DNA of 64,000 bases from Deltaproteobacteria bacterium. GTDB taxonomy: Bacteria > Desulfobacterota > GWC2-55-46 > UBA9637. Both the position numbers and the translations under genes were made by a program. Positions within the stretch are counted from its first letter, which is position 1, and every line of letters starts with the position of its first letter. The stretch spans positions 21,721-85,720 of the forward strand of contig JACRNJ010000032.1 in NCBI GenBank assembly GCA_016219285.1, given 5' to 3'. Shown here in pieces: positions 1,399-57,944 of the stretch. Under the pieces are notes generated by a model, which saw only the letters and a program-made list of their open reading frames with translations, was not told the origin of the DNA and made no database searches.

Positions 1399-2618
1399 AG
1401 ACCATATTACTATCACTCCGTAATATATTCAGAAATAAGAGAAGGACTGCTATTACATTCATGGCAATTATCTCGGGTATGACAGGGATTATAGTCTTTG
1501 GCGGTTTTGTTAAATTTACCTATCAGGGCTTAAGGGAATCAACAATAAGGACTCAGCTCGGTCATGTCCAGATATATAAGAAGGGTTATTCGGAAAAGGG
1601 TGTTGCCAACCCAAACAAATACCTGATAAATAATCCGGAGGCTGTTGAAAAGGCATTATCAGTAATACCTGATATAAAGATGGTCAGCAGCAGGCTCACA
1701 TTTTCCGGTCTTATCAGCACAGGAGAAAAGACACTCACATGCAAGGGTATAGGTATTGCCGTAGAAAAGGAAGGAGAGATGAGCGACTTTGAAACCATTG
1801 TAGAGGGCGGACAACTTGAGCCGGATATGCCGGACGGCGGGGTAGTAGGCATCGAGCTCATGAAGGCGCTCGGTGCAAAGGTAGGGGATTATCTGACCAT
1901 CCTTACCACGACAACGGAGGGTGCTATAAATGCCTTAGATTTTAAAGTAGTCGGTGTGGCGCAGACAGGCTCACAAGATTATGACAGCGTATTCGTAAAA
2001 CTGCCGATTAAGCTCGTTCAGAGGGTTTTAGACACGGATTCTGCAGAAAAGATTATAGTTCTTTTAAATGATACTGATAATATCGGCAGGGTGTCCCTGG
2101 TATTGGAGGATATTATCAAAAAGAATGGATTCAATCTTGAGTATAAGCTATGGAGCGACCTTGCGATATTTTACAATAAGGTAGTTCAGCTCTATAACGG
2201 AATATTCGGTGTGATAAAAATCATTATAGGCGTTATTGTCCTTTTCAGCATAGCAAATACTATGAATATGTCCGTATTTGAGAGGGTGAGGGAGATAGGG
2301 ACATTAAGGGCAATCGGGACGACGAGGGCGGGTATTATGAGGTTGTTTATATCAGAGGGGATATTGGTCGGGATAATCGGCGGTTTGTTCGGTATTGCTG
2401 CCGGTATTTTAATAGCATACATCATCAACTTAAGCGGGGGGATATACATACCTCCGCCTCCTAACATGAACAAGGGATATATCGCACTTATATTGATTGT
2501 GCCGGAGGTAATACTCTATGCCTTTGTCTCAACAGTAATTGTATCCGCTCTATCATCAATCTATCCTGCATATAAGGCATCGAAACTAAAGGTAGTGGAG
2601 GCGCTGGGACATGTGTAA
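1395..2618 (+). CDS. ABC transporter permease, FtsX/MacB/LolCE family
   Basis: TTG start overlaps the upstream stop. An N-terminal transmembrane segment is followed by a large periplasmic domain and then three C-terminal transmembrane segments (FtsX fold). Length 407 aa. Confidence 0.85.
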   Translation: MKTILLSLRNIFRNKRRTAITFMAIISGMTGIIVFGGFVKFTYQGLRESTIRTQLGHVQIYKKGYSEKGVANPNKYLINNPEAVEKALSVIPDIKMVSSRLTFSGLISTGEKTLTCKGIGIAVEKEGEMSDFETIVEGGQLEPDMPDGGVVGIELMKALGAKVGDYLTILTTTTEGAINALDFKVVGVAQTGSQDYDSVFVKLPIKLVQRVLDTDSAEKIIVLLNDTDNIGRVSLVLEDIIKKNGFNLEYKLWSDLAIFYNKVVQLYNGIFGVIKIIIGVIVLFSIANTMNMSVFERVREIGTLRAIGTTRAGIMRLFISEGILVGIIGGLFGIAAGILIAYIINLSGGIYIPPPPNMNKGYIALILIVPEVILYAFVSTVIVSALSSIYPAYKASKLKVVEALGHV

Positions 2619-2628
2619 AAAAATCAAG

Positions 2629-3387
2629 ATGCAAGATTCAAGATGCAAGATTCAAGTTTTACATCTTAAGTTTCTACTCGCAACTATTTTCTTACAACTT
2701 GCAACTTGCAACCTGCAACTGTCTTTTGCCCTTACGCCGCAGGAGGTACTTGAAAAGGTAGATAATATAAGGGCGCCTGACAGGACATTCATCTTTAACT
2801 TAAAGGTAACTGTTAAAAAAGGGGATGATGAAGATGTTTCAGAATTTTCTGTAAGGGTCAAAGATGCAAAGAAAAGCCTTGTTGTCTTTAAATCACCCCC
2901 ATCAAATAAAGGACGGGTATTGCTTATGGTAGAAGATAATATGTGGATATACATACCAGGGACAAGAAACCCCATAAGAATATCGCCCCAGCAGCAGATT
3001 ATGGGGAGGGTATCAAACGGAGATGTTGCAAGGGTTGTATATAATCTCGATTACAACGTTGAATCATTGGAAAATGAAGGGGAAATTATAAAGATGACCC
3101 TCGCTGCAAAGACAAAGGGCGCAGCATATAAAAGTATAAATCTGTGGATAGAAAAGGAGACCTTTAAACCTATCAAGGCAGAATTTTTTGCCCTGTCTGG
3201 TAAACTTTTAAAAACAGGATATTACAAAGGCTACAAAGAGATACTTGGCAAAGAGAGACCAACCATCATAGAGATACATGATGGGATAAAGGAACCAGAG
3301 ATATCCATTATGGAATATAGCAACATAAAACTTGAAGACACTCCCGATGCACACTTTCAGAAGACATTTATGGAAAGGGTGAAATAA
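2629..3387 (+). CDS. LolA-like outer-membrane lipoprotein-sorting / periplasmic carrier-like protein
   Basis: About 250 aa periplasmic protein with a signal peptide (LLATIFLQLATCNLQLSFA). The N-terminal region is encoded by the tandem repeat at 2618-2735. The start could be 2611 or 2629. The gene sits in an ABC/FtsX operon, as expected for a LolA_like family member. Confidence 0.55.
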   Translation: MQDSRCKIQVLHLKFLLATIFLQLATCNLQLSFALTPQEVLEKVDNIRAPDRTFIFNLKVTVKKGDDEDVSEFSVRVKDAKKSLVVFKSPPSNKGRVLLMVEDNMWIYIPGTRNPIRISPQQQIMGRVSNGDVARVVYNLDYNVESLENEGEIIKMTLAAKTKGAAYKSINLWIEKETFKPIKAEFFALSGKLLKTGYYKGYKEILGKERPTIIEIHDGIKEPEISIMEYSNIKLEDTPDAHFQKTFMERVK

Positions 3388-3395
3388 AATGTAAA

Positions 3396-4673
3396 ATGCA
3401 AAATGTAAAATGCAAAATTAAGGTAACTTTTTTTGTCTTTTTTATTTTTCTCTCTTGCCTATCCCATGCGCAGGAATTTACCTATGAATTCAGCGGCAAG
3501 ATTATTGAACAGCCCGCATATTATTTTTTAAAAGATGATTATCTCCTGAACCCCAACGGAGAGATACTGGATTTTTCTCTCTCAAAAAACAGGTTTTATG
3601 GCGATATAAATTTCAACCTTGATTACCAGAATTTTAAATTCATCTCAAAATTTAGACCAACAGTTTTATCGGATAAAAAGGATACAAATATAAAAACCAT
3701 TATTGATGACGGGTATCTGGACATTGGTTTTAAAGATAGGTTTTTCCTCTATCTTGGCAAAAGGAATATAAGGGATGGGGTTGGGCTCGGCTCAAATCCT
3801 ACAGATTTCTTAGGTGAAGGAAAAGAGGTTGATATGGCAAAGAGGGAGGAGGAGAGGCGGGTGGAGAGGGAGGGTAATTACCTGATCGGTATGGATACCT
3901 ATTTTAAAGATATTACATTAACTGCAATATTTGCCCCCCATATAAAGGAACTACAGGATGAAAAGGATAGGGTCATTTTAAAGGCAGGTTTTCTGATGGA
4001 GCCGCTCAATACAGACATCTCTTTTCACTATTTTAACAGCAGCATACCGGGGGCGGGCATTAACATATCCACCACCATTGGAGAGAGTCTTGTTCTGCAC
4101 ACAGAGTCAGCCCTTCGATGGGGAAGCGATAGAAAGATAGTCAGGCTCATCCAGGAGGGAAGCCCAAACCTATACGAAATATATCATCCCGATGACAATC
4201 AAACAATCTATCCACATATAGCAGCAGGAGGACATTATACATTTAAAGACGGAACGAATGTTATATTAGAATACCTATATAATGGCGATGGATACAATAG
4301 CGAAGAATGGAATACTCTCAAAGGATTTATAAAATACAGCTATGACGAATACAAAACCGGCTTTTTAAAAGAGCTTATGAAAGGGAACCTACTGCAGGCA
4401 AACGAGATAATGAGATTCAGGGAGTTGAGGAGAAACTATATCTTTGCAAGGATAAGCAACTCCGGCATCACAGAAAAGATAGACGGGGCATTGGTCTTCC
4501 TTTTAAATACAGATGATAAGAGCTTTCTCATTTATCCATCCGTGGATTATAAGATCAAGGGCAATACTACCGTAGGATTTTCTGCCATAATATTTGTCGG
4601 TGAAAATGACACGGAATTTGGTATGACCCACTGGGGGAGCGAAGTTAGTATGGTATATAGGTATTTCTTTTGA
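3396..4673 (+). CDS. putative outer membrane beta-barrel protein
   Basis: Signal peptide ending SHAQEF. The sequence alternates amphipathic beta-like segments rich in Y and G. The C-terminus RYFF ends in an aromatic residue, typical of OMP beta-barrels. It is the last gene of the exporter cluster. Confidence 0.45.
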   Translation: MQNVKCKIKVTFFVFFIFLSCLSHAQEFTYEFSGKIIEQPAYYFLKDDYLLNPNGEILDFSLSKNRFYGDINFNLDYQNFKFISKFRPTVLSDKKDTNIKTIIDDGYLDIGFKDRFFLYLGKRNIRDGVGLGSNPTDFLGEGKEVDMAKREEERRVEREGNYLIGMDTYFKDITLTAIFAPHIKELQDEKDRVILKAGFLMEPLNTDISFHYFNSSIPGAGINISTTIGESLVLHTESALRWGSDRKIVRLIQEGSPNLYEIYHPDDNQTIYPHIAAGGHYTFKDGTNVILEYLYNGDGYNSEEWNTLKGFIKYSYDEYKTGFLKELMKGNLLQANEIMRFRELRRNYIFARISNSGITEKIDGALVFLLNTDDKSFLIYPSVDYKIKGNTTVGFSAIIFVGENDTEFGMTHWGSEVSMVYRYFF

Positions 4674-7696: not shown

Positions 7697-8674
7697 ATGA
7701 AGATTAAGATTAAAATTTCACGCTGCGACCCTATGGGTAAAGGCTGGTGCGAGCCGTTTCTCCAAGCCTATGACATAGAGGTAAAAGAGGGTATGACTAT
7801 CCTTGATGCCATTCATCTTGTGAAGGATGTGCAGGATGGGACGTTGGCATTCAGACGGTCTTGCCGGAGCGCTATCTGCGGTTCCTGTGCTGTGAACATA
7901 AATGGTTTTCCAAAACTTGCTTGTAAGACACAGCTTATTACCGAATACAGGAAAAAAGAGTCAATGGTCATTGAACCCCTTTCAAACCACAGGGTGATAA
8001 AAGACCTTGTTGTTGATTTTAATCCATTCTGGGATAAGATAAATAAAGTGGAACCGTGGTTGAATCGTAAGTCGGCTATCAGCCATCAGCCATCAGCTGT
8101 CAGCAAAAAAGATGTTTTGAAGATAGATAATTCCAGCAAATGTATTATGTGCGGATGCTGTAATGGAGCCTGTAATACATTAGAGATTGATAAACATTTT
8201 ATTGCCCCGGCTGCTTTGGCAAAGGCATGGAGGTTTGTGGGTGATGTAAGGGAAGGGGAGAAGAAGAAAAGACTGGAAAAGCTCAGCGAGGCGCATGGTA
8301 TGTGGGATTGCGTAAGATGCGTAAACTGCACTCAGTATTGCCCAAAAGACGTAGCGCCACTTCAGGCAATAGAAAGATTAAGGGCAGAGGCAATAAATCA
8401 AGGAGTTATAGATAATCATGGCGCAAAACATGTAAAATCAATGGTTGATTCCGTGAAGAGGGTGGGCAGACTGGATGAGGCCGCAATGACTTTCAAGACG
8501 CTTGGTTTTTTGCGCTCTTTAGGCATGATACCCTTTGGGTTGAAAATGGAAATGCACGGAAAAATGCCTATGCCGCTCATATTTCCGCAGATTGAAAAAA
8601 TTGAAGAGGTGAAGAAAATATATGAGGAGATAGAGAAGAGAAAGGAGCAGGTTGAGGTTAAGGTAGAGAAGTAA
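7697..8674 (+). CDS. succinate dehydrogenase/fumarate reductase-type iron-sulfur subunit (FrdB/SdhB-like) with C-terminal extension
   Basis: 2Fe-2S ferredoxin motif CRSAICGSCAVNING plus two 4Fe-4S motifs CIMCGCCNGACN and CVRCVNCTQYCP. An in-frame simple-sequence insert lies at 8077-8104. A C-terminal extension of about 80 aa is present. Confidence 0.75.
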   Translation: MKIKIKISRCDPMGKGWCEPFLQAYDIEVKEGMTILDAIHLVKDVQDGTLAFRRSCRSAICGSCAVNINGFPKLACKTQLITEYRKKESMVIEPLSNHRVIKDLVVDFNPFWDKINKVEPWLNRKSAISHQPSAVSKKDVLKIDNSSKCIMCGCCNGACNTLEIDKHFIAPAALAKAWRFVGDVREGEKKKRLEKLSEAHGMWDCVRCVNCTQYCPKDVAPLQAIERLRAEAINQGVIDNHGAKHVKSMVDSVKRVGRLDEAAMTFKTLGFLRSLGMIPFGLKMEMHGKMPMPLIFPQIEKIEEVKKIYEEIEKRKEQVEVKVEK

Positions 8675-10679: not shown

Positions 10680-10800
10680 GTATAATGCCAAATGTCAAAA
10701 TCCAAATTACAAATAAATTTCAAATGATAAATCTCAAATGACAAATTTAACGTTTGAATTTTGAAATTTGGGTTTTATTTGACATTTGGATTTTGATATT
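10680..10800. repeat. intergenic heptamer-type tandem/inverted simple repeat (caaatg/caaat units)
   Basis: aaatgtcaaaatccaaattacaaataaatttcaaatgataaatctcaaatgacaaattt ... followed by its near reverse complement, giving a long imperfect palindrome. Confidence 0.8.
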
Positions 10801-10820
10801 TGGATTTGTCTATCTATATT

Positions 10821-11882
10821 ATGTCATTCAAAGATATTTTAGGACATGATAGAGAAATAAGCATTTTGAAGAAAGCCATTTCAAATAATAGAGTTGCTCA
10901 TTCATTTTTATTTGCTGGGCATGAAGGGATAGGCAAACGGCTTGTTGCCATTTCCGTTGCAAAGGCGCTTAACTGCTCTGCTGCAAACAAGAGCCCCTCC
11001 TTATCGCCATTTAACAAAACAGGATGTGATGGAAGTAATAATGATTTTTGCGGGGTTTGTCAAAACTGCAAGGATATAGAGGCCTCTTCATACAGCGATG
11101 TCTTTCTGATTGAGCCGAGAGAGCCGGAATCCAAGGGCGGGAAAATAGACCATATAGCCGGCACAATAAAGATTGATGCTGTGAGAGATGTTCAGCAAAG
11201 GCTGTCTTACAGGGCAGCAAGAGGCGGCAAAAAGGTGTGTATAGTAGACTGCGCCGAGAAGATGAATAAAGAGGCTCAGAATGCATTCCTTAAAACACTT
11301 GAAGAGCCACCTTCTGATTCCATTATAATATTGGTTGTTAGCGATGGCGGAGCCATTTTGCCGACAATAACTTCTCGCTGCCAAAGGATCAATTTTACCC
11401 CGCTGCCGCAAAATGTTATGCTTGACATAGTCGGAGAACGATTGGGGGCAGCAAAAGAAACTGCTGTGCTGCTTGCTTGTTTGAGTGGAGGCAGCATAGG
11501 AAAGGCATTAAACTTGGATATGGATACCATGCTTGAACAAAGGAAAAAGATTGTTGAAGTATTATCACGGTTATCTTTGGATGATGCAGAAGGAATGTTC
11601 AAAGCAGCTGAAAAGATATCAAAAGGAGAGAGGCCTGTAGAGTCTCTGGAGTTTCTCAAAATATGGTATAGAGATATTGCGATATTAAAGGAAGGTGTGG
11701 AGGATATGGTTGTAAATTCAGACCTCCTGCCTGTTTTAAGACAGCATATGGAGCGCCAAACTTTTTCAAGGCTTATATCCGATTTTCAAATGGTGCTAAA
11801 TGCCCAATCTGATATTATGCCGCCAAGGTATGCAAATAAACAATTGACTATTGAAAATTTGCTTATGCAGCTTGCCACATAA
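10821..11882 (+). CDS. holB: DNA polymerase III subunit delta-prime
   Basis: AAA+ clamp-loader N-terminus (AHSFLFAGHEGIGKRLVA), a zinc-module-like CxxC...CxxC segment, and a SRC-like TSRCQ motif. Follows tmk. Confidence 0.8.
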   Translation: MSFKDILGHDREISILKKAISNNRVAHSFLFAGHEGIGKRLVAISVAKALNCSAANKSPSLSPFNKTGCDGSNNDFCGVCQNCKDIEASSYSDVFLIEPREPESKGGKIDHIAGTIKIDAVRDVQQRLSYRAARGGKKVCIVDCAEKMNKEAQNAFLKTLEEPPSDSIIILVVSDGGAILPTITSRCQRINFTPLPQNVMLDIVGERLGAAKETAVLLACLSGGSIGKALNLDMDTMLEQRKKIVEVLSRLSLDDAEGMFKAAEKISKGERPVESLEFLKIWYRDIAILKEGVEDMVVNSDLLPVLRQHMERQTFSRLISDFQMVLNAQSDIMPPRYANKQLTIENLLMQLAT

Positions 11883-12075
11883 TGATTTACGAATTACGAT
11901 TTACGAATTACGATTTTAAATACTTCACCTTACTTGCAAATCATAAATCTATACACAGCGACATAAATAGTTGCGCATACAGAGCGTCAGAACAAAGCAG
12001 ACCGAGGAGCAACACAGGTATGCGAAGTTATGACGCTCTGTATAAAATCGTAAATCATAATGGAGGATTGATATA

Positions 12076-15174: not shown

Positions 15175-16599
15175 TTGTCAAACCAATATAAACTCATAGA
15201 CACCCATGCCCATCTTGACGACCCTAAATTTAAGAACGACCTGGATGACGTGATAAAAAGGGCAAAGGATGCAGGCGTTGGACATATAATCACTGTAGGC
15301 ACATGGCAAATTGAAAAAGGACTCAAGCATGTTGCAGAGCTTGCCGATGAATACGATTTTATCTATACTGCCCTTGGTGTTCATCCACATGATGCCAAAG
15401 ATGCAAATGATGACGCATTTAATGAAATCAAGGAACTGGCGCTCCATCCAAAGGTTATCGCCATTGGCGAAACAGGGCTTGATTATCATTACGAACACTC
15501 GCCGAGGGATGTTCAAAAAGCAGTATTTGCAAGGCAAATCCAAATAGCCCGTGAATTAAATCTGCCTCTTACCATTCACAGCAGGGAAGCACAGAACGAC
15601 ACTTTGGATATGCTTGCGCAGGAAGGTGTCAGAGACATCGGAGGTGTTTTGCATTGTTTTTCCGGCAGCTATGAAATGGCAAAGAAATGCCTTGATATGG
15701 GTCTCTATCTCTCCTTTACAGGTGTTGTCACATTTCCAAAGGCGGCAAATGTCCATGAGGTTGTAAAAAAGATTCCTATTGAAAGAATGCTCCTTGAAAC
15801 CGATTGCCCGTATCTGGCTCCTGAGCCGCACAGGGGCAAGAGGAATGAACCGGCATTTGTTGCAGAAACTGGAAAAAGGATTTCTGAGATAAAGGGATTA
15901 TCGTTTGACGATGTGGCAAGGATTACCACATTAAATGCAAAGGAACTATTCGGCATTGAGAAAGAAAATAAAGAAACCAGAATAGCGTATCCCATCAGGA
16001 ATTCACTTTACCTCAATATCACCAACCGATGCACCAACTACTGCACATTCTGCGCAAAGCATGCCCCCGCAGGCTTTAAGCGGGGGTCGAATGATTATAC
16101 TGTCAAGGGTCATTATTTGAGATTGAAGCAAGAGCCGGTCTTTCTTGATGTAATAATGGCTGTGGGCGACAGGCCTGCTGAAAAATATAACGAGATTGTA
16201 TTTTGCGGGTTTGGCGAGCCGCTTATAAGACTCGACCTTGTTAAAGAGGTTGGATTGTTTCTAAAAAAACAGGGTTGTAAGATACGGATAGATACAGACG
16301 GCCTTGCCAATCTTGTTCATGAAAGAAATATCCTGCCTGAACTTAAGTTTGTGGATACAATCTCCGTAAGTCTCAATGCCCCGGATTCAGCAACATATCA
16401 AAAACTCATCAAAACACCATTTGGCGACAAGGCATTTCCTGCCATAGTTTGGTTTTTGAAAGAGGCAAAAAAGCATATTTCAACGGTTGTTGCCACCGTA
16501 GTTGCTGTGCCAGAACTTGATATAGAGCCGTGCAGGAAATTGGCCGAAGATGAGCTCGGCGTTGGTTTCAGGGTGAGGGAGTATGATGAGGTGGGATAA
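15175..16599 (+). CDS. tatD: fusion protein: TatD-family metal-dependent hydrolase (N-terminal) plus TatD-associated radical SAM domain (C-terminal)
   Basis: TTG start. N-terminus DTHAHLDD ... GLDYHY ... ETDCPYL is a TatD fold. The C-terminal part of about 200 aa has CTNYCTFC (CxxxCxxC) and GFGEPL, a radical SAM core. It forms a single uninterrupted ORF of 474 aa downstream of metG, as Bacillus metS-yabD. Confidence 0.8.
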   Translation: MSNQYKLIDTHAHLDDPKFKNDLDDVIKRAKDAGVGHIITVGTWQIEKGLKHVAELADEYDFIYTALGVHPHDAKDANDDAFNEIKELALHPKVIAIGETGLDYHYEHSPRDVQKAVFARQIQIARELNLPLTIHSREAQNDTLDMLAQEGVRDIGGVLHCFSGSYEMAKKCLDMGLYLSFTGVVTFPKAANVHEVVKKIPIERMLLETDCPYLAPEPHRGKRNEPAFVAETGKRISEIKGLSFDDVARITTLNAKELFGIEKENKETRIAYPIRNSLYLNITNRCTNYCTFCAKHAPAGFKRGSNDYTVKGHYLRLKQEPVFLDVIMAVGDRPAEKYNEIVFCGFGEPLIRLDLVKEVGLFLKKQGCKIRIDTDGLANLVHERNILPELKFVDTISVSLNAPDSATYQKLIKTPFGDKAFPAIVWFLKEAKKHISTVVATVVAVPELDIEPCRKLAEDELGVGFRVREYDEVG

Positions 16600-16745
16600 A
16601 TACAAATTCCAAATTGCAAATCCCAAATAGCAAATAAATCTCAATCACCAATTCCCAATTTCCCAATCATATCCTTTGTTTGGCTATTGTAATTTGGTCA
16701 TTGGTTATTATTTGAATATTGATGCTTGCAATTTGGCGCTTATAT

Positions 16746-20392: not shown

Positions 20393-21523
20393 ATGATATA
20401 CTTAGACAATGCAGCCACATCATATCCAAAACCCGAATCGGTCTATCAAAGGATAGACCATATCTTGAGGCACACAGGCGGAAATCCGGGGAGGAGCGGC
20501 CACAGAATGGCCCTGGACGCAAGCCGTGTGATATTTGAGGCAAGGGAAAGCGCTGCCAGACTTTTTAACATCAAAAATGCCTCAAGGATTGTATTTACAA
20601 AGAATGCCACAGAGGCTATAAATATTGCGTTTAAGGGTATTTTAAGACAAGAAGAACATGTTGTTACGACATCCATTGAGCATAATGCGGTTGTAAAACC
20701 TCTAAAAAGACTGGAGGCGCGGGGGGTTCAAGTTACACAACTTAAGGTTGATAAAAACGGCTGGGTTGAGCCAAAGGATATTGAAAAGGCAATAAGAAAA
20801 GAGACAAAACTCATATCTGTTGTCCATGCCTCGAATGTGTTCGGCGCAATACTTCCTGTGGCAGAGATAGGCAGGATATGCAGAAAGAAAAATGTTTTAT
20901 TCATGGTTGATGCCGCTCAAACAGCAGGCGCAATGCCCATAGATATTGAGGCATTAAATGTGGATATATTCGCTGCCACAGGACACAAGAGCCTGTTTGG
21001 CCCGCAGGGCACAGGGTTATTGTATGTTAGGGAAGGGATTGAACCGTTGCCTTTTATTGACGGAGGCACAGGCGAGGATGATGAGCTGGTAGAAATCCCT
21101 GACAGGCTTGAATCAGGCACCATAAACACCCCAGGCATAGGAGGGCTTGGCGCAGGCATAGAATTTCTCTTAAAAGAGGGTGTTAAAAAGATAAGGCGGT
21201 ATGAAGAGGGGCTAATAAGGCAGATATTGGATGGTTTATCAGGCATAAAAGGCATAGAGATTATCGGGCCGCAGGATGAAAAAAAGAGAACACATCTTGT
21301 TTCGTTTAATATGCAAGGCAAAGACCCTTCGGATATCGGTTACAGACTGGATAATGAATTCGGCATTATGTTAAGATGCGGTCTTCACTGCGCCCCTTGC
21401 GCTCATAGGTCTGCCGGCACTTATCCATCAGGGGCTGTTAGGGTAAGCCCGGGATATTTTAATACGGCTGATGATATAGAGGAGTTTTTGAGGGGAGTGA
21501 GGGAGATAAGTTGCGGGTTTTAA
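20393..21523 (+). CDS. cysteine desulfurase family protein (aminotransferase class V, NifS/CsdA-like subgroup)
   Basis: PLP-dependent class V fold with a conserved lysine region (ATGHKSL) and a C-terminal Cys loop (RCGLHCAPCAH). Length 376 aa. Confidence 0.75.
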   Translation: MIYLDNAATSYPKPESVYQRIDHILRHTGGNPGRSGHRMALDASRVIFEARESAARLFNIKNASRIVFTKNATEAINIAFKGILRQEEHVVTTSIEHNAVVKPLKRLEARGVQVTQLKVDKNGWVEPKDIEKAIRKETKLISVVHASNVFGAILPVAEIGRICRKKNVLFMVDAAQTAGAMPIDIEALNVDIFAATGHKSLFGPQGTGLLYVREGIEPLPFIDGGTGEDDELVEIPDRLESGTINTPGIGGLGAGIEFLLKEGVKKIRRYEEGLIRQILDGLSGIKGIEIIGPQDEKKRTHLVSFNMQGKDPSDIGYRLDNEFGIMLRCGLHCAPCAHRSAGTYPSGAVRVSPGYFNTADDIEEFLRGVREISCGF

Positions 21524-21600
21524 GTTATTAAGATTTAAGTTGTAAGATTTAAGTCTTTTACTTACAACTTTCAACCTACAACTTGAATCTTTAATTTATT

Positions 21601-22716
21601 ATGTTAATCCTCGGTATTGAATCTTCATGCGATGATATGGCTGCTGCGGTTGTAAAAGACGGCAGGTATATCCTTTCCAATGTTGTGTCTTCTCAAGATG
21701 AGATACATAAAAAATATGGCGGTATTGTGCCTGAACTTGCGTCAAGAAGGCACCTTGAGACAGTTATACCGGTAGTAGAGGAGGCATTAAATCAGGCAAA
21801 AGTAACATTGGATGATATAGATGCCATTGGTGTCACGCAGGGTCCCGGGTTGGTTGGCTCCATACTTGTCGGTCTTTCATTTGCAAAGGCTATCTGCTAT
21901 GTAAAGGACATGTCATTTGTCGGAGTGAATCATATAACAGCGCATCCTATGGCAGTGTTTTTAGAGGCAGGGAGCAGGGAACAGGGAACAGGGAATGGAA
22001 ATGATAATATCCGACCCCCGATCCCTGATCCCCAATATCCGATTTTTCCCTTCATCGCCCTTGTTGTATCAGGCGGGCATACCACACTTTTTAAATTTAA
22101 AGACTTTGATAATTATGAAATCCTTGGCCAAACCAGAGACGACGCGGCAGGAGAGGCGTTTGACAAGGTTGCAAAACTTTTGGGGCTCGGCTATCCGGGC
22201 GGCGCTGTTATAGACAGGCTTGCAAAAAGCGGAAATGTTTCTGCAATAGAGTTTACACGGCCATATATATCAAAGGATACCCTTGATTTCAGCTTCAGCG
22301 GCATTAAGACAGCAGTTCTTAATTATCTTAAGGAAACTGAAAGTCATGGGTCAGGGGTCAGTGGTCAGGGGTCAGGGTTTAAATCGAAAATCGAAAATCG
22401 AAAATCGAAAATCAATATAAACGACCTTGCGGCCAGTTTTCAAGAGGCAATCGTTGATGTGCTGACAGACAAGGCTGTTTCGGCATGCAAGGCTAATAAC
22501 ATAGATAGCCTGGTAGTTTCCGGCGGAGTTGCCTGCAACAGCAGATTGAGAGAAAAAATGCGCATAAAATCTAAAGACAATAGCATAAAGATTTTTATCC
22601 CGGAGCCAGGACTGTGCAGCGATAACGGCGCTATGATTGCGGCGGCAGCGTATCATTTTTTAAAGAATGGAATCAGAGGCGGGCTTGATATGAATGCGAT
22701 ACCAAATATGGAATAA
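21601..22716 (+). CDS. tsaD: tRNA N6-adenosine threonylcarbamoyltransferase TsaD (Kae1/Gcp) carrying two in-frame repeat insertions
   Basis: Conserved motifs LGIESSCDD, GGIVPELASRRH, VSGGHT and GGVACN are present. There are two low-complexity inserts (EQGTGNGND..., HGSGVSGQGSGFKSKIENRKSKI), each encoded by DNA tandem repeats. Confidence 0.9.
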   Translation: MLILGIESSCDDMAAAVVKDGRYILSNVVSSQDEIHKKYGGIVPELASRRHLETVIPVVEEALNQAKVTLDDIDAIGVTQGPGLVGSILVGLSFAKAICYVKDMSFVGVNHITAHPMAVFLEAGSREQGTGNGNDNIRPPIPDPQYPIFPFIALVVSGGHTTLFKFKDFDNYEILGQTRDDAAGEAFDKVAKLLGLGYPGGAVIDRLAKSGNVSAIEFTRPYISKDTLDFSFSGIKTAVLNYLKETESHGSGVSGQGSGFKSKIENRKSKININDLAASFQEAIVDVLTDKAVSACKANNIDSLVVSGGVACNSRLREKMRIKSKDNSIKIFIPEPGLCSDNGAMIAAAAYHFLKNGIRGGLDMNAIPNME

Positions 22717-32100: not shown

Positions 32101-32101
32101 G

Positions 32102-32723
32102 GTAGGTTGGGTTGAGCAAAGCGAAACCCAACAATTCATTCATACCCTACATCCTCATCAAATTGAATCTCACAACCTGCCCCCCAATCGCTCTTGTAAA
32201 TGCCCTGTTTAACATAACGATGAAAACTTGAATATGCCCAGTCGCGTGGCAATGTTACCAGACTATGTTTAACAGGATTGTAATGGATGTAATTACAATG
32301 CGCCTCAAAATCTTTCTCGTCTCTAATCTGATGCTCCCAAAACCGCCTCTGCCAAACCGCTTGTTCTCCCTTACTTAATTTTGAGGCAGATCTAAAGCCT
32401 TTATATCCATCCTGACATTGTCTGCTAAAATAGCTTTTTATAAGCCCCCATCGCAGAGAAAAATCATTATCGTTGTGCGGCAATGTCCAGATACAGTGAA
32501 TATGATCGGGCAGCAAAACAAATGCGTCAATCCGAAAGGTGTGTCTGTTGATAACATACTGAAACGCTTCTTTTATCAACCGTATGTTTGCTTCATGGCA
32601 TAAAATCCTTTTCCTCCCGTGCGTTACCACCGTAAAGAAAAATGCCGCCCCTTTTGCCTTTGACCTGCGATAACGCATTGCTTTTTATGATTATGTTGGG
32701 TTTCGTTCCTCAACCCAACCTAC
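32102..32723. mobile_element. RAYT (REP-associated tyrosine transposase) unit bounded by hairpin inverted repeats
   Basis: Left end is gtaggttgggttgagcaaagcgaaacccaaca. Right end is tgttgggtttcgttcctcaacccaacctac, its inverse, and each end is an 8-bp-stem hairpin. The unit encloses one transposase gene. Confidence 0.8.
32136..32678 (-). CDS. REP-associated tyrosine transposase (IS200/IS605 TnpA-like, Y1 HUH family)
   Basis: HuH motif LPDHIHCIW and catalytic Tyr region NYIHYNPVKH. Length 180 aa, which is longer than IS200 TnpA and typical of RAYTs. Confidence 0.8.
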   Translation of the reverse strand: MRYRRSKAKGAAFFFTVVTHGRKRILCHEANIRLIKEAFQYVINRHTFRIDAFVLLPDHIHCIWTLPHNDNDFSLRWGLIKSYFSRQCQDGYKGFRSASKLSKGEQAVWQRRFWEHQIRDEKDFEAHCNYIHYNPVKHSLVTLPRDWAYSSFHRYVKQGIYKSDWGAGCEIQFDEDVGYE

Positions 32724-32898
32724 CAACTTCAGTAAGGGTTATGACAGAAGAAAAAGCGCTCAATCTCTCTGACTGAAAAGAATCAACCACTTCTTTGGCA
32801 ATTGATCCAAACTGAGGATTAGCTTCGATGTAATAAATGATGGGCGCTGTATCTATGAAAATAGTATTTATTTGATCAAGTTCATCCGAGAGGGTCAT
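32710..32898 (-). pseudogene. vapC: N-terminal half of PIN-domain (VapC) toxin gene truncated at the RAYT element boundary
   Basis: IFIDTAPIIYYIE has the first PIN Asp and ITLTEV has the second acidic residue. The ORF ends inside the right inverted repeat of the RAYT unit. Confidence 0.5.
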
Positions 32899-37943: not shown

Positions 37944-38007
37944 AATAAAATCAGGACAGGCATTTTTCTTCTGTATTGCAAAAGTGGGAAACGCCACAGG
38001 CGCATTA
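37944..38007. repeat. direct repeat DR-left bracketing a toxin-antitoxin islet
   Basis: aatcaggacaggcatttttcttctgtattgcaa...gccacagg. A 35 bp near-identical core is repeated at 39497-39530. Confidence 0.8.
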
Positions 38008-38071
38008 TCTTTCAGAACAAAATGTAAGAGATTGCAATTGTGAAGGGGAAAGGGTAAAATGGAGAAAATCA

Positions 38072-54513: not shown

Positions 54514-54586
54514 AAAAAAATTGTAGATTTACGAATTACGAATTACGATTTAAAATCTAAAATCATAAATCTAAAATAGTAAATCC
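54514..54586. repeat. intergenic tandem simple repeat (attacga / aaatcta units)
   Basis: gtagatttacgaattacgaattacgatttaaaatctaaaatcataaatctaaaatagtaaatc. Confidence 0.8.
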
Positions 54587-55246
54587 CTAATACCTGCCTT
54601 TGGTAAATCTATTTACAAAATAAATAACTGAAAACGAAAACAGCGTTATAATTCCTACAAGGATGTTTGCCAAACTTGTATTTCCCATTTGAACCGCATC
54701 GTATATGGCAATAGGGATGGTCTGGGTCATGCCTGGGATATTTCCTGCAACCATAAGTGTTGCGCCGAACTCGCCTGTCGCCCTTGCAAATGCTATGATG
54801 CTGCCCGCCGCTATTCCTCTCCAGGCCAGAGGAATTGTTATGGTCTTCAATACCGCCCACTCTGTTTTGCCCAGAAGCCTTGCCGCATTTTCCAGATTTT
54901 TATCCACCCCTTCAATTGCAGCCCTTGCCGGTCTCACAAATAGCGGCAGAGAGGCTACAAATGCCGCAACTACGGCCGCCTTCCATGTAAATACAAGGGT
55001 TATGCCTAATGTATCTTCAAGAATCCTTCCGAACGGGCTTGACCTTCCAAGAAGCACAAGAAGGTAATATCCAAGAACAGTCGGTGGAATAACAATGGGC
55101 TGCATAACAAGGGCATCCAGAATTCCTTTTCCAAAAAATTCCTTTCTCGCCATGAGCCATGCCAGACAAAGCCCTATAATTATGGAAAAAAAGGTGGCAA
55201 CAAAAGAAACCTTTAAGGTAAGGTATAGTGGGAATAAGTCTATCAT
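54587..55246 (-). CDS. modB: molybdate ABC transporter permease
   Basis: Five transmembrane helices with the MetI-type EAA loop (ARLLGKTEWAVLKTITIPL). Length 219 aa. Confidence 0.85.
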   Translation of the reverse strand: MIDLFPLYLTLKVSFVATFFSIIIGLCLAWLMARKEFFGKGILDALVMQPIVIPPTVLGYYLLVLLGRSSPFGRILEDTLGITLVFTWKAAVVAAFVASLPLFVRPARAAIEGVDKNLENAARLLGKTEWAVLKTITIPLAWRGIAAGSIIAFARATGEFGATLMVAGNIPGMTQTIPIAIYDAVQMGNTSLANILVGIITLFSFSVIYFVNRFTKGRY

Positions 55247-56067
55247 TAAAATTCTCCCGGCAGAAGAAAACCGTATTTTTTCATGATTGGCCTGCCTATA
55301 GGGCTGGTTACATAGTGTATAAATTCCCTTGCCTCTTTTTCAGCCTTTGTCTTTTTTATCACAGCCGCCGCCTGATTGATAGGGTTATGAAGGATATTAT
55401 CAATAGGTGTATAGGTTATTTCAGGCACATTGGCAACCGATAATGCAATAATGCCAACAGGCACATCTCCTGTCTGGAGATACTGCAATGCCTGTCTTAT
55501 AATTTCGCCATAAACAAGTTTGGGTTTAAGTTTATCCCATAATTCAAGTTTTAGCAGTGCCTCTTTTGCGGCAATGCCATAAGGCGCATGGTCTGGATTG
55601 GCAATAGAAATCTTTTTAATAGACGGGTCAAGGAGGTCTTCAAGTTTTTTTGCGTTTATCCCATATGTTTTATTCGCAGCCAGAACGATCCTGCCCTGGG
55701 CATACAGTTTTTGTGTATCTGGAATAATGAGCCCGCCGTTTTTTAATTCATCAATATATTTTTCGTTGGCAGCAAAAAAAATATCAAATGGGGCGCCGTT
55801 TTCTATTTGCCTGGCAAGCATGCCTGTGGAACCGAATGACAGTACAACCCTCGTGCCGGTATTTATCTCAAATTGTTTGGCTATTTCCTTTAATGCAAAA
55901 GAAAGGTCGCTGGCGGCGGCAATAGTGAGAGATTTTTGTTCCGCAAAAATAGCAGCAGGCAGTAGGCAGTAGGCAGTAAGCAGTAACAGGATTTTAGATT
56001 TTAGATTTACGATTTTAGATTTATGATTTTTTAATTCGTAATTCGTAATTCGTAATTCGTAAATCAT
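55246..56067 (-). CDS. modA: molybdate-binding periplasmic protein ModA; N-terminus and start codon encoded by an intergenic-type tandem repeat
   Basis: Mature part LTIAAASDLSFALKEIAKQFE...GTRVVLSFGSTGMLARQIENGAPFDIFFAA is the ModA fold. The only in-frame canonical start is the ATG at 56067, inside the repeat atgatttacgaattacgaattacg. Confidence 0.8.
   Translation of the reverse strand: MIYELRITNYELKNHKSKIVNLKSKILLLLTAYCLLPAAIFAEQKSLTIAAASDLSFALKEIAKQFEINTGTRVVLSFGSTGMLARQIENGAPFDIFFAANEKYIDELKNGGLIIPDTQKLYAQGRIVLAANKTYGINAKKLEDLLDPSIKKISIANPDHAPYGIAAKEALLKLELWDKLKPKLVYGEIIRQALQYLQTGDVPVGIIALSVANVPEITYTPIDNILHNPINQAAAVIKKTKAEKEAREFIHYVTSPIGRPIMKKYGFLLPGEF
55985..56066. repeat. tandem simple repeat (gattttagat and aattcgt units) spanning the gpsA-modA junction
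   Basis: gattttagattttagatttacgattttagatttatgattttttaattcgtaattcgtaattcgtaattcgtaaatcat. Confidence 0.85.
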
Positions 56068-57068: not shown

Positions 57069-57944
57069 TCAATTCTCCTTAAGCGCCATCGGCGTATTCT
57101 TTTTCTCTCTTGCCTCTATTGCATCTAATCTTATCTTTATGACACCAGGGTTGGGATAGCTTTTTTCCAATGCCTTATAAAGCCCTATTGCCTCTGCAAG
57201 GTTTCCTGTTTCTTCAATGCAGACGGCCTTGCCGAGTTGCGCCTCATAAGCGTATTGGCTGTTTGGATATGATGAAAATACCAGTTCGTATGCCTTTATA
57301 GCCTCTTTGTAATTACCCTCCATGTAATAGGTGTTTGCCATCTCATAATAAACATTAGGGCCAAGCTCAGAAGACGGAGAGTTTTTGATAATTTCCTGAA
57401 GTTCAATCCTTGCCTGTTTGATGTCAGTGAGTTTAAGATATGCCATTGCTATCTGATATTGAAAATTGTCGCTCAGGGCCCCGCCTGTATTTTTTATAAG
57501 CCATTGATATTCCCCTATTGCCTTTCTATAATTGCCACTTTTAACATATATCTCCGCTATATCCTGCCTTGCCAGTACTATTTCTTTGCTGTTTGGATAC
57601 AACAGCATCAATGTCGCATATGCATTCATGGCCTTTTTAACATCCTTTAGATAAAGGTTATAGATAAGGCCAATCTTATACTGGCTTGCAGAGGCATACT
57701 GGCTTTCCGGATATTTGGTTACAATATTACTGTACCTCGCAATAGCCTTTACATATGCGCGTTGGCCGAAAAGTTCTTCTGCCTTTTCATAAGCAGGAAG
57801 GGTGTGGTCCTGGGAGCAGGATAAAAGAAAAATACATATTGCAAGTTGTAAAATGCAAAGGGGAAAATGCAAATTTAAAGGAAAAGACTTTAAGTTTTGT
57901 AATTTACAATTTACAATTTGCAATTTGCAATTTGCATTTTGCAT
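57069..57944 (-). CDS. TPR-repeat lipoprotein (BamD/YbgF-like)
   Basis: Lipobox LLSCSQ and multiple TPRs (AYEKAEELFGQRAYVKAIARY...). The N-terminal 17 aa are encoded by a tgcaaat tandem repeat, and an internal TTG is a plausible alternative start. Confidence 0.5.
   Translation of the reverse strand: MQNANCKLQIVNCKLQNLKSFPLNLHFPLCILQLAICIFLLSCSQDHTLPAYEKAEELFGQRAYVKAIARYSNIVTKYPESQYASASQYKIGLIYNLYLKDVKKAMNAYATLMLLYPNSKEIVLARQDIAEIYVKSGNYRKAIGEYQWLIKNTGGALSDNFQYQIAMAYLKLTDIKQARIELQEIIKNSPSSELGPNVYYEMANTYYMEGNYKEAIKAYELVFSSYPNSQYAYEAQLGKAVCIEETGNLAEAIGLYKALEKSYPNPGVIKIRLDAIEAREKKNTPMALKEN

What the first reader, a model, noticed from the sequence alone, without database searches (positions are those of the whole stretch)
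2611..2735. Tandem repeats supply start codons and signal-peptide N-termini of secreted proteins in three genes
- LolA-like gene at 2611: begins MCKKIKMQDSRCKIQVLHLKFLLATIF..., encoded by gatgcaagattcaa units followed by cttgcaa units.
- ModA at 56067: begins MIYELRITNYELKNHKSKIVNLKSKI before the hydrophobic core. The only in-frame canonical start is the ATG inside the aattcgtaaatcat repeat.
- TPR lipoprotein at 57944: begins MQNANCKLQIVNCKLQ from tgcaaat repeats.
- The otherwise non-coding repeat ORF at 11882 begins with the same MIYELRFTNY.
- These repeats sit exactly where translation initiation and export signals are specified, so repeat-number changes could switch N-terminal length and start-codon context (possible phase variation).
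Basis: partly seen in the sequence, partly recalled or inferred. Interest (0 to 1): 0.55.

Follow-up and report, generated by a model that had tools for sequence, protein, structure and literature searches.

The report
Heptamer repeats encode hypervariable signal peptides
In this uncultured groundwater bacterium and its close relatives, short 7-base tandem repeats that fill most gaps between genes also run in frame through the export signals of several secreted proteins, so these signals differ completely between near-identical strains; there is no good evidence that this is an on/off switch.

Summary
The window holds 18 period-7 tandem arrays, against 0-2 at any other period and 0-1 after shuffling.

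Comparative data show the arrays are translated:
- Orthologous junctions in five to seven related assemblies carry different heptamer units, but the frame stays open.
- 14 non-redundant leaders of close ModA homologs show strong 7-residue periodicity (96 lag-7 identities against 38.7±5.8 shuffled). 67 distant leaders show none.
- ModA proteins at least 90% identical carry unrelated leaders.
- The window's TPR leader element is the ModA leader in a relative.

The repeats supply the start codon in three of the four genes. They do not at the flagged LolA-like gene, whose ATG 2611 is ancestral.

Phase variation is not supported. Arrays are short, imperfect, genome-wide and mostly non-coding, and the genes are housekeeping. 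Only one of 7 ModA loci read at DNA level is out of frame, at an A7 run.

Best reading: heptamer-array elements are tolerated in signal-peptide coding regions and so generate them. This is a new variant of known kinds.

The parts
2611..2730 (+). Leader (40 codons) of the LolA-like protein: MCKKIKMQDSRCKIQVLHLKFLLATIFLQLATCNLQLSFA | LTPQE. ATG 2611 overlaps the FtsX-permease stop (ATGTGTAA).
   Evidence: The same ATGTGTAA start and the 'A|LTPQE' site occur in orthologs with a 22-aa ordinary leader (L081/L082; P0203, P0204, P0206). Signal-peptide features.
2624..2656 (+). Array (CAAGATG/CAAGATT), period 14 x2.4. Encodes the n-region KMQDSRCKIQ and contains a second in-frame ATG at 2629.
   Evidence: TRF; codon view.
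2691..2720 (+). Array (CTTGCAA) x4.3. Encodes h-region residues LQLATCNLQ.
   Evidence: TRF.
2611..3387 (+). LolA-like (outer-membrane lipoprotein-sorting family) gene.
   Evidence: Pfam PF17131 E=9.5e-41, aa 87-256. An identical NCBI protein, P0202, is annotated with the same start.
3385..3418 (+). Array (TAAAATG/TGCAAAA) x4.9. Holds the LolA-like stop codon, a minimal ATG-TAA, and ATG 3396 of the next gene. Encodes MQNVKCKI.
   Evidence: TRF.
3396..4673 (+). Exported protein of unknown family (no Pfam hit, ends ...YRYFF). Leader is MQNVKCKIKVTFFVFFIFLSCLSHA | QEF (3396-3470).
   Evidence: The ortholog in L083 has the ordinary leader MKSKKRRFFCFFLSLILMPVIAHG.
55942..56067 (-). ModA leader (42 codons): MIYELRITNYELKNHKSKIVNLKSKILLLLTAYCLLPAAIFA | EQK. 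ATG 56067 lies one base after the gpsA stop.
   Evidence: An identical NCBI protein, P0001, has the same start.
56032..56062 (-). Array (CGAATTA on the gene strand) x4.4, 100% matches. Encodes YELRITNYEL. The ATG sits in the degenerate edge unit ATGATTTA (56060-56067).
   Evidence: TRF. The same ATGATTTACGAATTACGA occurs at 11882.
55990..56030 (-). Array (TAAAATC on the gene strand) x5.9. Encodes HKSKIVNLKSKI. The in-frame TAA is avoided by the unit variant GTAAATC.
   Evidence: TRF; codon view.
55952..55985 (-). Array (CTACTGC on the gene strand) x4.9. Encodes the hydrophobic core LLLLTAYCLLPAA.
   Evidence: TRF. The same core is conserved in P0013, P0015, P0016 and P0025.
55246..56067 (-). 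modA (molybdate ABC transporter substrate-binding protein).
   Evidence: Pfam PF13531 E=6.8e-62 from aa 47.
57819..57944 (-). TPR-lipoprotein leader: MQNANCKLQIVNCKLQNLKSFPLNLHFPLCILQLAICIFLLS | C. ATG 57944 directly follows the gyrA stop TAA (57945-57947).
   Evidence: The RNA hairpin has z=-4.4. The element is 93% identical over 73 nt to the ModA leader of L085/L087/L088.
57896..57943 (-). Array (TGCAAAT on the gene strand) x6.9, first hairpin arm. Supplies the ATG and the n-region.
   Evidence: TRF.
57835..57879 (-). Degenerate complementary arm (ATTTGCA-like units). Encodes LNLHFPLCILQLAI of the h-region.
57069..57944 (-). TPR/YfiO-like lipoprotein gene.
   Evidence: Pfam TPR_6, TPR_2 and YfiO; lipobox FLLS|C.
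54526..54585 (+). Non-coding inverted copy of the ModA-leader element, (TTACGAA)n-(TAAAATC)n, in the modB-modC spacer.
   Evidence: 89% identity over 62 nt to 56004-56065. Both ends of the independent contig L084 break in these two copies.
11882..11916 (+). Third copy of the ATGATTTACGAATTACGA array, just after the holB stop. It heads a 64-codon ORF that is probably non-coding.

Best explanation
**Background.** The genome belongs to an uncultured groundwater lineage annotated as 'Deltaproteobacteria bacterium' and, like its close relatives, is peppered with short heptanucleotide tandem arrays. Often an A/G-rich array is followed, after an A-rich loop, by a roughly complementary C/T-rich array. 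These arrays occupy most spacers between genes and begin right at the upstream stop codon.

**What happens at exported-protein genes.** Where the downstream gene encodes an exported protein, the arrays are not 5' UTR. They lie inside the ORF, between a start codon that abuts or overlaps the upstream stop and the signal-peptidase I site or lipobox. Seven is not a multiple of three, so an array is read in all three frames and gives a 7-residue peptide repeat.
- A/G-rich units give K/R/Q/N/S/E-rich n-regions.
- The A-rich loop gives Lys-Lys.
- C/T-rich units give L/F/C/A/I/P/S hydrophobic cores.

Together these make a workable Sec or lipoprotein signal peptide.

**Why the leaders vary so much.** Export demands only an open frame, positive charge and hydrophobicity. 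The arrays can therefore expand, contract and be swapped for other array elements. Only changes that keep the frame survive, for example 21 nt, which is 3 units. This makes the leaders hypervariable while the mature proteins stay conserved. Sometimes the element replaces the ancestral overlapping ATGA/GTGA junction, donating a stop codon to the upstream gene and an ATG to the downstream one.

**Shown:**
- the arrays and their positions;
- frames kept open across species;
- 7-residue periodicity of the leaders;
- leader replacement among proteins at least 90% identical;
- the same element on different genes;
- signal-peptide-like properties.

**Inferred:**
- actual initiation at those ATGs;
- actual export and cleavage;
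- the mutational mechanism (slippage, or recombination between dispersed copies).
For: 1. Period-7 arrays are specific and abundant: 18 at lag 7 against 0-2 at other lags, and 0-1 after shuffling.
2. All four exported genes have 42-46 open codons upstream of the mature N-terminus, running through the arrays. For 7 of 9 cytoplasmic genes preceded by arrays, the frame closes 1-8 codons upstream of the start.
3. Pfam places the mature domains downstream of the leaders. The leaders have net-positive n-regions, 10-aa hydrophobic windows with KD 2.3-3.0, and a small residue at -1 or a lipobox Cys.
4. Orthologous gyrA-TPR-gpsA-modA loci (L001, L002, L085, L086) carry other heptamers at the same junctions: AGAAGTC/TCTTGCA, GTCAGGA/CTATTGC, AATTTCA/TTACTGC. 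The gene frame stays open, while the other frames of the two repeat-bearing relatives checked (L001, L002) hold 1-4 stops.
5. LolA-like orthologs keep the start and the cleavage site but have a 22-aa ordinary leader. The window leader is therefore the ancestral leader plus in-frame arrays.
6. In 14 non-redundant leaders of close ModA homologs there are 96 lag-7 identities, against 23-58 at other lags and 38.7±5.8 in shuffles (maximum 58 in 1000). 67 distant leaders show no lag-7 peak.
7. ModA clusters at 90% identity contain 2 to at least 4 unrelated leaders each.
8. The window TPR leader element equals the L085/L087/L088 ModA leader element. This includes the TCTTAA-ATG junction and the lipobox-like end. 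The copies differ by 21-nt and 12-nt indels.
9. Arrays also sit in frame as two roughly 22-aa loop insertions in TsaD, shown against PDB 8iey_A.
10. An independent assembly (L084) is 100% identical through the ModA leader.
Against: - No experimental start-site, export or cleavage data exist, and no SignalP run was possible; only a heuristic was used.
- Some leaders are unusually long: 59 aa in L001 ModA and 64 aa in P0127. Internal TTG starts could be used instead.
- Starts in database proteins are gene-caller choices. NCBI picked downstream TTG/GTG starts for P0121, P0122 and P0010.
- Short-read MAG assemblies can mis-size tandem arrays, and contigs break at them.
- Two cytoplasmic genes (MiaB-like and GyrA) also have 28-39 open codons upstream, so an open frame alone is weak evidence.
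- The mechanism of array turnover is unknown.
Confidence: 0.7

Rival explanations
1. Contingency-locus phase variation. Slipped-strand changes of one or two heptamers, or of the A-run in the loop, shift the frame and switch export or expression of these proteins on and off, as CTCTT repeats do in the Neisseria opa leader.
For: - The unit length is not a multiple of 3 and the arrays lie inside the ORF, 5' of the mature domain.
- The locus is clearly hypermutable among close relatives.
- One allele (L089) has its ATG out of frame by 1 nt at an A7 tract between the two arrays.
- The literature notes SSR enrichment near N-termini (Lin and Kussell, as cited in PMC4692102).
Against: - Arrays are short and mostly imperfect: 2.4-6.9 copies, mostly 79-92% matches.
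- They occur in most spacers, including 3' ends and convergent junctions, and upstream of cytoplasmic genes.
- ModA and the LolA-like protein are housekeeping, not surface-variable antigens.
- 6 of 7 ModA, 5 of 5 TPR and all LolA-like loci read at DNA level are in frame.
- Indels between copies are 21 and 12 nt.
- The single frameshift is in a homopolymer of a MAG and may be a sequencing error.
Confidence: 0.12
2. The arrays are primarily nucleic-acid elements: RNA hairpins that act as intercistronic terminators, stabilisers, or devices for translational coupling or occlusion. Their translation as leaders is an incidental by-product.
For: - Paired complementary arrays fold into long hairpins: 10690-10815 z=-6.4, TPR leader z=-4.4, 21510-21600 z=-3.8, L001 TPR leader z=-2.85.
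- The orthologous gyrA 5'-UTR hairpins in the window and in L001 use different units but keep arm complementarity.
- Most arrays are non-coding.
Against: - Several arrays, including leaders, show no significant fold: 3396 z=-0.1, 41370 z=+0.9, L001 ModA z=-0.5, LolA z=-1.6.
- ModA's three arrays are not mutually complementary.
- No Rfam family matches.
- This reading does not conflict with the leaders being translated. It addresses why arrays exist, not what they do in these four genes.
Confidence: 0.25
3. The repeats are purely intergenic. Real translation starts lie downstream of all arrays at non-canonical codons.
For: The element's ATG also occurs where nothing exported follows (11882). 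NCBI chose shorter starts for some homologs.
Against: - Downstream of the arrays there is no room for a hydrophobic core before the mature domain. ModA has only PAAIFA left before EQK, and the hydrophobic cores themselves are array-encoded.
- ModA and the LolA-like protein are periplasmic families.
- The frame is conserved across species despite unit turnover.
- The leaders show 7-aa periodicity.
Confidence: 0.03

Closest known systems
Neisseria opa (and similar) genes: CTCTT pentamer repeats in the signal-peptide coding region that drive phase variation (PMC3960869, PMC5354566)
   Same: A tandem repeat whose unit is not a multiple of 3 lies inside the leader-peptide coding sequence. It is translated as hydrophobic leader residues, and copy number determines the frame.
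   Different: - Here there are several different heptamer units per leader, in short imperfect arrays.
- They are part of a genome-wide family that is mostly intergenic.
- The genes are housekeeping.
- No ON/OFF polymorphism was demonstrated.
- Leaders are replaced wholesale rather than only changing in length.
Genome-wide heptanucleotide simple-sequence repeats in bacteria: TAACTGA in Beggiatoaceae, cyanobacteria and Bacteroidetes (PMC4679880); GGGAATC in Xanthomonas and Nostoc (PMC4692102); heptanucleotide elements in Geobacter metallireducens (PMC2700814); cyanobacterial STRR heptamers (own knowledge)
   Same: - Period 7, 2-10 copies, dispersed over many spacers.
- Often directly upstream of start codons or just after stop codons.
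- Sometimes tandemly inverted.
- Occasionally at the periphery of ORFs.
- Indels in 7-nt steps between strains.
   Different: - Unit sequences differ: no TAACTGA, STRR1-3, GGGAATC or GGGACCG dimers occur in the window.
- Those papers describe the repeats as regulatory or intergenic. In the one checked for the term (PMC4679880), 'signal peptide' never occurs. None of the passages read from the other two report repeats building the signal peptides of exported proteins or hypervariable leaders.
[quoted passage not shown]
   Same: A dispersed non-autonomous repeat is read through in frame. In one reported case it contributes to a predicted signal peptide. Orthologs elsewhere have unrelated signal peptides.
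   Different: - Here the elements are built from heptamer arrays rather than a fixed 100-170-nt sequence.
- The phenomenon recurs in 4 genes within 64 kb and across many relatives.
- The same element serves different exported proteins.
- No transposase link was found.
Low information content of signal peptides: random sequences can replace a secretion signal (Kaiser et al. 1987; own knowledge, not checked here)
   Same: This explains why repeat-generated peptides with charge plus hydrophobicity can work, and why leaders can turn over freely.
   Different: That was a laboratory demonstration. Here a natural mutational process appears to exploit the same tolerance.

Membership tests
Sec (SPase I) / lipoprotein (SPase II) signal peptide | Positively charged n-region | tested here: met
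   K+R 3-6 against D+E 0-2 before the hydrophobic window in all four window leaders.
Sec (SPase I) / lipoprotein (SPase II) signal peptide | Hydrophobic h-region of about 7-15 residues or more | tested here: met
   The best 10-aa Kyte-Doolittle window is 2.29-3.00, the same range as the array-free orthologs at 2.28-3.28.
Sec (SPase I) / lipoprotein (SPase II) signal peptide | Small residues at -3/-1 (AXA-like), or a lipobox ending in Cys at +1 | tested here: met
   SFA|L, SHA|Q and IFA|E; FLLS|C for the TPR protein. A heuristic was used, not SignalP.
Sec (SPase I) / lipoprotein (SPase II) signal peptide | Mature part belongs to an extracytoplasmic family | tested here: met
   SBP_bac_11, LolA_like, and TPR/YfiO-type lipoprotein.
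Sec (SPase I) / lipoprotein (SPase II) signal peptide | Demonstrated translation from that start, export and cleavage | not testable with these tools
   Needs proteomics or reporter fusions.
SSR-driven phase-variable contingency locus (opa type) | Repeat with a unit not divisible by 3, inside the ORF or promoter | tested here: met
   Heptamer arrays lie within the leaders.
SSR-driven phase-variable contingency locus (opa type) | Long, near-perfect tract prone to slippage | tested here: not met
   2.4-6.9 copies, mostly 79-92% matches, with alternating unit variants. Only (CGAATTA)x4.4 and the 14-nt x2.4 array are perfect.
SSR-driven phase-variable contingency locus (opa type) | ON and OFF frames co-occurring among sibling strains or within populations | tested here: inconclusive
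   1 of 7 ModA loci is out of frame, at an A7 run (L089). All the others are in frame. No read-level data were available.
SSR-driven phase-variable contingency locus (opa type) | Repeats concentrated in a set of surface or host-interaction genes | tested here: not met
   Arrays are in most spacers and next to housekeeping genes.
Genome-wide heptanucleotide SSR / STRR-type arrays | Period 7, tandem, dispersed, predominantly intergenic | tested here: met
   18 arrays in 64 kb. Also present in L001, L002 and several Desulfobacterales/Thermodesulfovibrionia loci.
Genome-wide heptanucleotide SSR / STRR-type arrays | Same unit sequence as a described family (TAACTGA, STRR1-3, GGGAATC, GGGACCG) | tested here: not met
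   0 tandem dimers of any of them, in any rotation, on either strand.
Dispersed MITE/REP-like mobile element | Multiple copies similar beyond the repeat unit itself | tested here: met
   89% over 62 nt between 56004-56065 and 54526-54585. 93% over 73 nt between the window TPR leader and the L085 ModA leader, including the non-repetitive loop.
Dispersed MITE/REP-like mobile element | Defined termini or target-site duplication, and a cognate transposase | tested here: inconclusive
   No target-site duplications were recognised. The only Y1/RAYT-like transposase (32136-32678) is flanked by a different 19-nt inverted repeat, not by heptamer arrays.

The most novel reading that the evidence does not exclude
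The heptamer-array hairpins are portable 'leader cassettes'. They are dispersed elements that land at gene junctions and carry four things: a stop codon for the upstream gene, their own ATG, a Lys-coding A-rich loop and a hydrophobic-coding arm. On this reading they move between junctions and replace the signal peptides of exported proteins. For example, the gyrA-TPR junction element of the window appears, with its lipobox-like end, at the gpsA-modA junction of L085/L087/L088. The hairpin, heptamer slippage or A-run slippage might additionally tune or switch translation and export. This would be a natural generator of signal-peptide diversity, and possibly of new exported proteins, in a whole bacterial lineage.
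Probability: 0.2. Interest if true: 0.75.

Novelty: new variant of a known kind. Interest (0 to 1): 0.58.

Why it matters
- It is a natural, recurrent case in which a mutational process that generates repeats writes functional protein-targeting signals. This illustrates how little information a signal peptide needs.
- It shows a route by which non-coding repeats become coding, and possibly by which proteins gain or swap export signals.
- It has practical consequences for annotating starts and signal peptides in MAGs. NCBI and Prodigal-type calls disagree on these genes.
- It affects assembly, because contigs break at the arrays.
- It cautions against reading every 5' coding repeat as a phase-variation switch.
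- The heptamer arrays themselves, including the orthologous hairpins whose two arms change unit sequence together, remain mechanistically unexplained. This lineage offers rich comparative material for studying them.

Tried and rejected
- **Other strains of the window organism.** Exact-protein look-ups for GpsA and NifU found nothing. ModB found only a 1.5-kb contig identical to the window, with both ends breaking in arrays, so no copy-number comparison was possible.
- **Rfam scan at gathering thresholds.** 0 hits, so no known RNA family explains the arrays.
- **A universal hairpin role.** Rejected, because several arrays, including three of the window's four leaders, do not fold better than shuffles.
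- **Link to the RAYT/IS200-like transposase at 32136-32678.** Its flanks are a different 19-nt inverted repeat, so no link was shown.
- **Identity with known heptamer families.** TAACTGA, STRR1-3, GGGAATC and GGGACCG are all absent.
- **Short NCBI ModA proteins (P0121, P0122) as candidate frameshifted OFF alleles.** Rejected. Their DNA is in frame with the array ATG, and the annotator simply chose a downstream TTG.
- **Open frame as proof of coding.** Tempered, because two cytoplasmic genes also have long open upstream stretches.
- **Literature searches.** Searches for heptamer repeats together with signal peptides found no description of this phenomenon.
Full report
**1. The observation**

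The sequence at 2611-2735 is as described. The ORF 2611-3387(+) begins MCKKIKMQDSRCKIQVLHLKFLLATIFLQLATCNLQLSFA|LTPQE. Tandem Repeats Finder reports TCAAGATGCAAGAT x2.4 (100% matches) at 2624-2656 and CTTGCAA x4.3 at 2691-2720.

The other three statements also hold:
- ModA 55246-56067(-) begins MIYELRITNYELKNHKSKIVNLKSKI. It runs over three arrays at 56032-56062, 55990-56030 and 55952-55985. ATG 56067 is the only in-frame ATG/GTG/TTG.
- The TPR lipoprotein 57069-57944(-) begins MQNANCKLQIVNCKLQ, encoded by TTTGCAA x6.9 at 57896-57943.
- The ORF at 11882 begins MIYELRFTNY.

Pfam confirms the gene identities: LolA_like aa 87-256, SBP_bac_11 from aa 47, and TPR/YfiO.

ORF 3396-4673(+) begins MQNVKCKIK, with its only in-frame start inside (TAAAATG)n at 3385-3418.

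**2. More than chance, and not special to these genes**

A lag-identity scan finds 18 arrays at period 7. Periods 4-13 and 15 give 0-2. Period 14 also gives 18, being the double period of the same arrays. Twenty locally shuffled windows give 0-1.

The arrays sit in nearly every intergenic spacer:
- between co-directional genes;
- inside operons (modB-modC);
- at convergent 3' ends (16598-16740);
- upstream of cytoplasmic genes.

Many come as an array followed by a roughly complementary array. Some of these fold into long hairpins and others do not.

| Region | z-score |
|---|---|
| 10690-10815 | -6.4 |
| TPR leader | -4.4 |
| 21510-21600 | -3.8 |
| 3396 leader | -0.1 |
| 41370-41495 | +0.9 |

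The same period-7 arrays, with other unit sequences, occur in the two closest genomes and in several Desulfobacterales and Thermodesulfovibrionia loci.

**3. Source organism**

The organism is an uncultured groundwater bacterium annotated as 'Deltaproteobacteria bacterium'.
- Identical ModA and LolA-like proteins are on a 96.8-kb NCBI MAG contig, annotated with the same starts (P0001; P0202).
- A Logan contig from SRR12113394 is 100% identical. Both its ends break in arrays.
- The nearest species-level relatives are L001 (JACRML010000017, GpsA 93% identical) and L002.

**4. Are the arrays translated?**

*Within the window:*
- All four exported genes have 42-46 open codons upstream of the mature N-terminus, running through the arrays. 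They reach back to an ATG that abuts or overlaps the upstream stop.
- For 7 of 9 cytoplasmic genes preceded by arrays, the frame closes 1-8 codons upstream of the probable start. MiaB-like and GyrA are exceptions.
- The hydrophobic cores are themselves array-encoded. Examples are (CTACTGC)n giving LLLLTAYCLLPAA and (CTTGCAA)n giving LQLATCNLQ. No alternative signal peptide can lie downstream.
- The leaders have positive n-regions, hydrophobic windows of KD 2.3-3.0, and SFA|L, SHA|Q, IFA|E or the lipobox FLLS|C. These values are indistinguishable from the array-free orthologs (heuristic only).

*Across species.* The syntenic gyrA-TPR-gpsA-modA block was recovered in L001, L002, L085, L086, L087, L088 and L089. 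Nucleotide alignment with L001 and L002, the two relatives aligned to the window, breaks exactly at the leaders.

The TPR leaders are:

| Locus | TPR leader | Array units |
|---|---|---|
| window | MQNANCKLQIVNCKLQNLKSFPLNLHFPLCILQLAICIFLLS\|C | TGCAAAT and its complement |
| L001 | MREVRSKKSEIRSKKLEVRNRKKSCILHLASCFLSLASRLLPLFLLLTAVIG\|C | AGAAGTC/TCTTGCA |
| L002 | MKQVRSQESEVKSHWQKKLLPIAYCLLPLFFLFAA\|C | GTCAGGA/CTATTGC |
| L086 | MKKNRSQKPEVRSQKFLFCILYSVFCLLLFTS\|C | AGAAGTC/TTCTGTA |
| L085 | MIAVEKARKVVTVFLLVAVITG\|C | none (ordinary leader) |

ModA leaders are equally diverse. In every case the gene frame is open. In the two repeat-bearing relatives checked (L001, L002) the other frames hold 1-4 stops.

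*The flagged LolA-like gene.* Orthologs at 69-78% identity keep the ATGTGTAA start ('MCK') and the A|LTPQE site. L081 and L082 have the ordinary 22-aa leader MCKTKVFWFLASCFLSLTHASA. P0203 and P0204 have other array-type leaders. The window leader is therefore an ancestral leader expanded in frame by arrays.

*ORF 3396.* Its ortholog in L083 has the ordinary leader MKSKKRRFFCFFLSLILMPVIAHG.

**5. Leader hypervariability**

A DNA heptamer array translates to a 7-residue period, which gives a direct test.
- In 14 non-redundant leaders of close ModA homologs there are 96 identities at lag 7. Other lags give 23-58. Shuffles give 38.7±5.8, with a maximum of 58 in 1000.
- In 67 leaders of more distant homologs there is no lag-7 peak.

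Within single 90%-identity clusters of ModA, the mature sequence is nearly identical but the leaders are unrelated. Examples:
- MQNANCKLQNLKPFPLNLHFPICILQLLLLSCLLLAASVFA
- MKVASGQWSVVRKAKKVVSDQWTKGTEV...VTGHWPLTTVVFA
- MKKPEVRSQKSEKKIKSFFCILNSVFCILFFATMVFA

One leader looks recombinant (P0156).

**6. The same element serves different genes**

The element at the window's gyrA-TPR junction is also found at the gpsA-modA junction of L085, L087 and L088. In those genomes the TPR gene has an ordinary leader.
- It is 93% identical over 73 nt. This includes the TCTTAA-ATG junction, the non-repetitive loop and the ...TTCTTTTRTCCTGCT end, which is the lipobox in the TPR gene.
- The copies differ by a 21-nt (3-heptamer) and a 12-nt indel. 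Both preserve the frame.
- Likewise, L086's TPR leader resembles P0021's ModA leader.

Inside the window, the n-region element of the ModA leader has two further copies:
- an inverted non-coding copy in the modB-modC spacer (54526-54585, 89% over 62 nt);
- a partial copy at 11882.

**7. Start codons**

Relatives show that the ancestral junctions were overlapping ATGA or GVGA stop-starts (L001, L085 and L086).
- In the window's TPR gene that junction is destroyed. The element provides the TAA for gyrA, adding one Ser, and provides the ATG.
- In the window's ModA the old GTG is out of frame and the array ATG is used.
- In ORF 3396 the array ATG is the only candidate.
- The LolA-like ATG is ancestral.

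So 'repeats supply start codons' holds for three of the four genes, but not at the flagged coordinates.

**8. Phase variation**

*For:*
- the unit is not divisible by 3 and lies 5' within the ORF;
- the locus is obviously mutable;
- one allele (L089) has its ATG shifted by 1 nt at an A7 run between the arrays.

*Against:*
- the arrays are short and mostly imperfect, genome-wide and mostly non-coding;
- the genes are housekeeping;
- 6 of 7 ModA, 5 of 5 TPR and all LolA-like loci read at DNA level are in frame;
- the short NCBI proteins are annotation choices, not frameshifts.

I rate it at about 0.12. Read-level data would settle it.

**9. Mechanism proposed**

Heptamer-array elements accumulate at gene junctions. 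Signal-peptide coding regions tolerate them, because export needs only an open frame, charge and hydrophobicity. An A/G-rich array, an A-rich loop and a C/T-rich array translate into K/R/Q-rich, KK and L/F/C/A-rich segments. Selection filters out everything that is not in frame and free of stops.

Support for in-frame tolerance elsewhere comes from TsaD. It carries two array-encoded loop insertions of about 22 aa each. These are query residues 124-148 and 247-268, which have no counterpart in PDB 8iey_A.

Why heptamers arise, and how the two arms of a hairpin change unit together between species, remains unexplained. The gyrA 5' UTR in the window against L001 is an example.

**10. Comparison with what is known**

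- Heptamer SSR excess in bacteria and intergenic heptamer families are documented (PMC4679880, PMC4692102, PMC2700814). The units here are different. In the passages read, those papers do not report signal peptides built from such repeats.
- The nearest functional analogue is the opa CTCTT leader repeat.

This is a new variant of known kinds, not a new system.

**11. Caveats**

- No experimental data exist.
- The signal-peptide test is heuristic.
- Database starts are gene-caller choices.
- MAG assemblies may mis-size arrays.
- Leader boundaries were set by a regular expression on the conserved mature motif.

Noticed in passing
window 21967-22033 and 22343-22413 (inside tsaD 21601-22716, +): Heptamer arrays sit in frame inside the essential TsaD gene. 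The units are CAGGGAA with TCCCYGA complement, GTCAGGG, and AAATCGA x4.7 (perfect). They give two roughly 22-aa insertions (aa 124-148 and 247-268) that are absent from the solved TsaD structure used for comparison (8iey_A).
   Followed up: partly
window 8078-8104 (inside ORF 7697-8674, +): (ATCAGCC) x3.9 lies in frame (ISHQPSAVS) in the linker between the 2Fe-2S and 4Fe-4S domains of an SdhB/FrdB-like protein. Not compared with orthologs.
   Followed up: no
window 60395-60480 (gyrA 5' UTR) vs L001 2700-2770: The orthologous 5'-UTR hairpins are built from different repeat units: CCGTGTC/ACGGACA in the window and AACAGGA/TTCCTGA in L001. Both arms have changed together between species. How this happens is unexplained.
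   Followed up: partly
L089 1426-1500 (ModA junction of GCA_041643075): The ATG of the array leader is out of frame by 1 nt relative to mature ModA, at an A7 run between the two arrays. This is either a homopolymer sequencing error or a genuine OFF or frameshift allele.
   Followed up: partly
window 32136-32678 (-), flanks 32101-32119 / 32706-32724: An IS200/RAYT-like Y1 transposase (PF01797, E=1e-7) is flanked by a 19-nt inverted repeat that is 95% complementary (GGTAGGTTGGGTTGAGCAA). The arrangement is REP/RAYT-like and has no evident link to the heptamer arrays.
   Followed up: partly
window ~33285-33500; L001 7833-8105: A MITE-like element with G/C-rich palindromes (CCCCTAAATCCCCTCTCGAGAGGGGACTAAAGGGG...) is 94% identical over 158 nt to an insertion between modA and modB in L001. 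It is absent from that site in the window.
   Followed up: partly
window 10690-10815 and 16598-16745: Very long imperfect hairpins are made of CAAAT-type heptamers and their complements (10690-10815: -39.7 kcal/mol, z=-6.4). They lie between tmk-like/holB and at a convergent gene junction. Their function is unknown.
   Followed up: partly
window 11950-12050: A 14-nt inverted repeat, CATACAGAGCGTCA...TGACGCTCTGTATA, lies in the holB-PSP1 spacer downstream of the array. No Rfam hit.
   Followed up: no
L002 1865-4158: A 2.3-kb insertion lies between gyrA and the TPR gene in L002. The sequence just before the TPR start (...AAGAAAAAAAGAGGAAGGGGAATGA) mimics the gyrA 3' end, which suggests the junction was duplicated.
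   Followed up: no
window 37976-38266, 39040-39330, 62208-63813: HicA and ParE toxin genes, and a DNA methylase with an MTaX1/HNH partner, indicate toxin-antitoxin and restriction-modification islands in the window.
   Followed up: no
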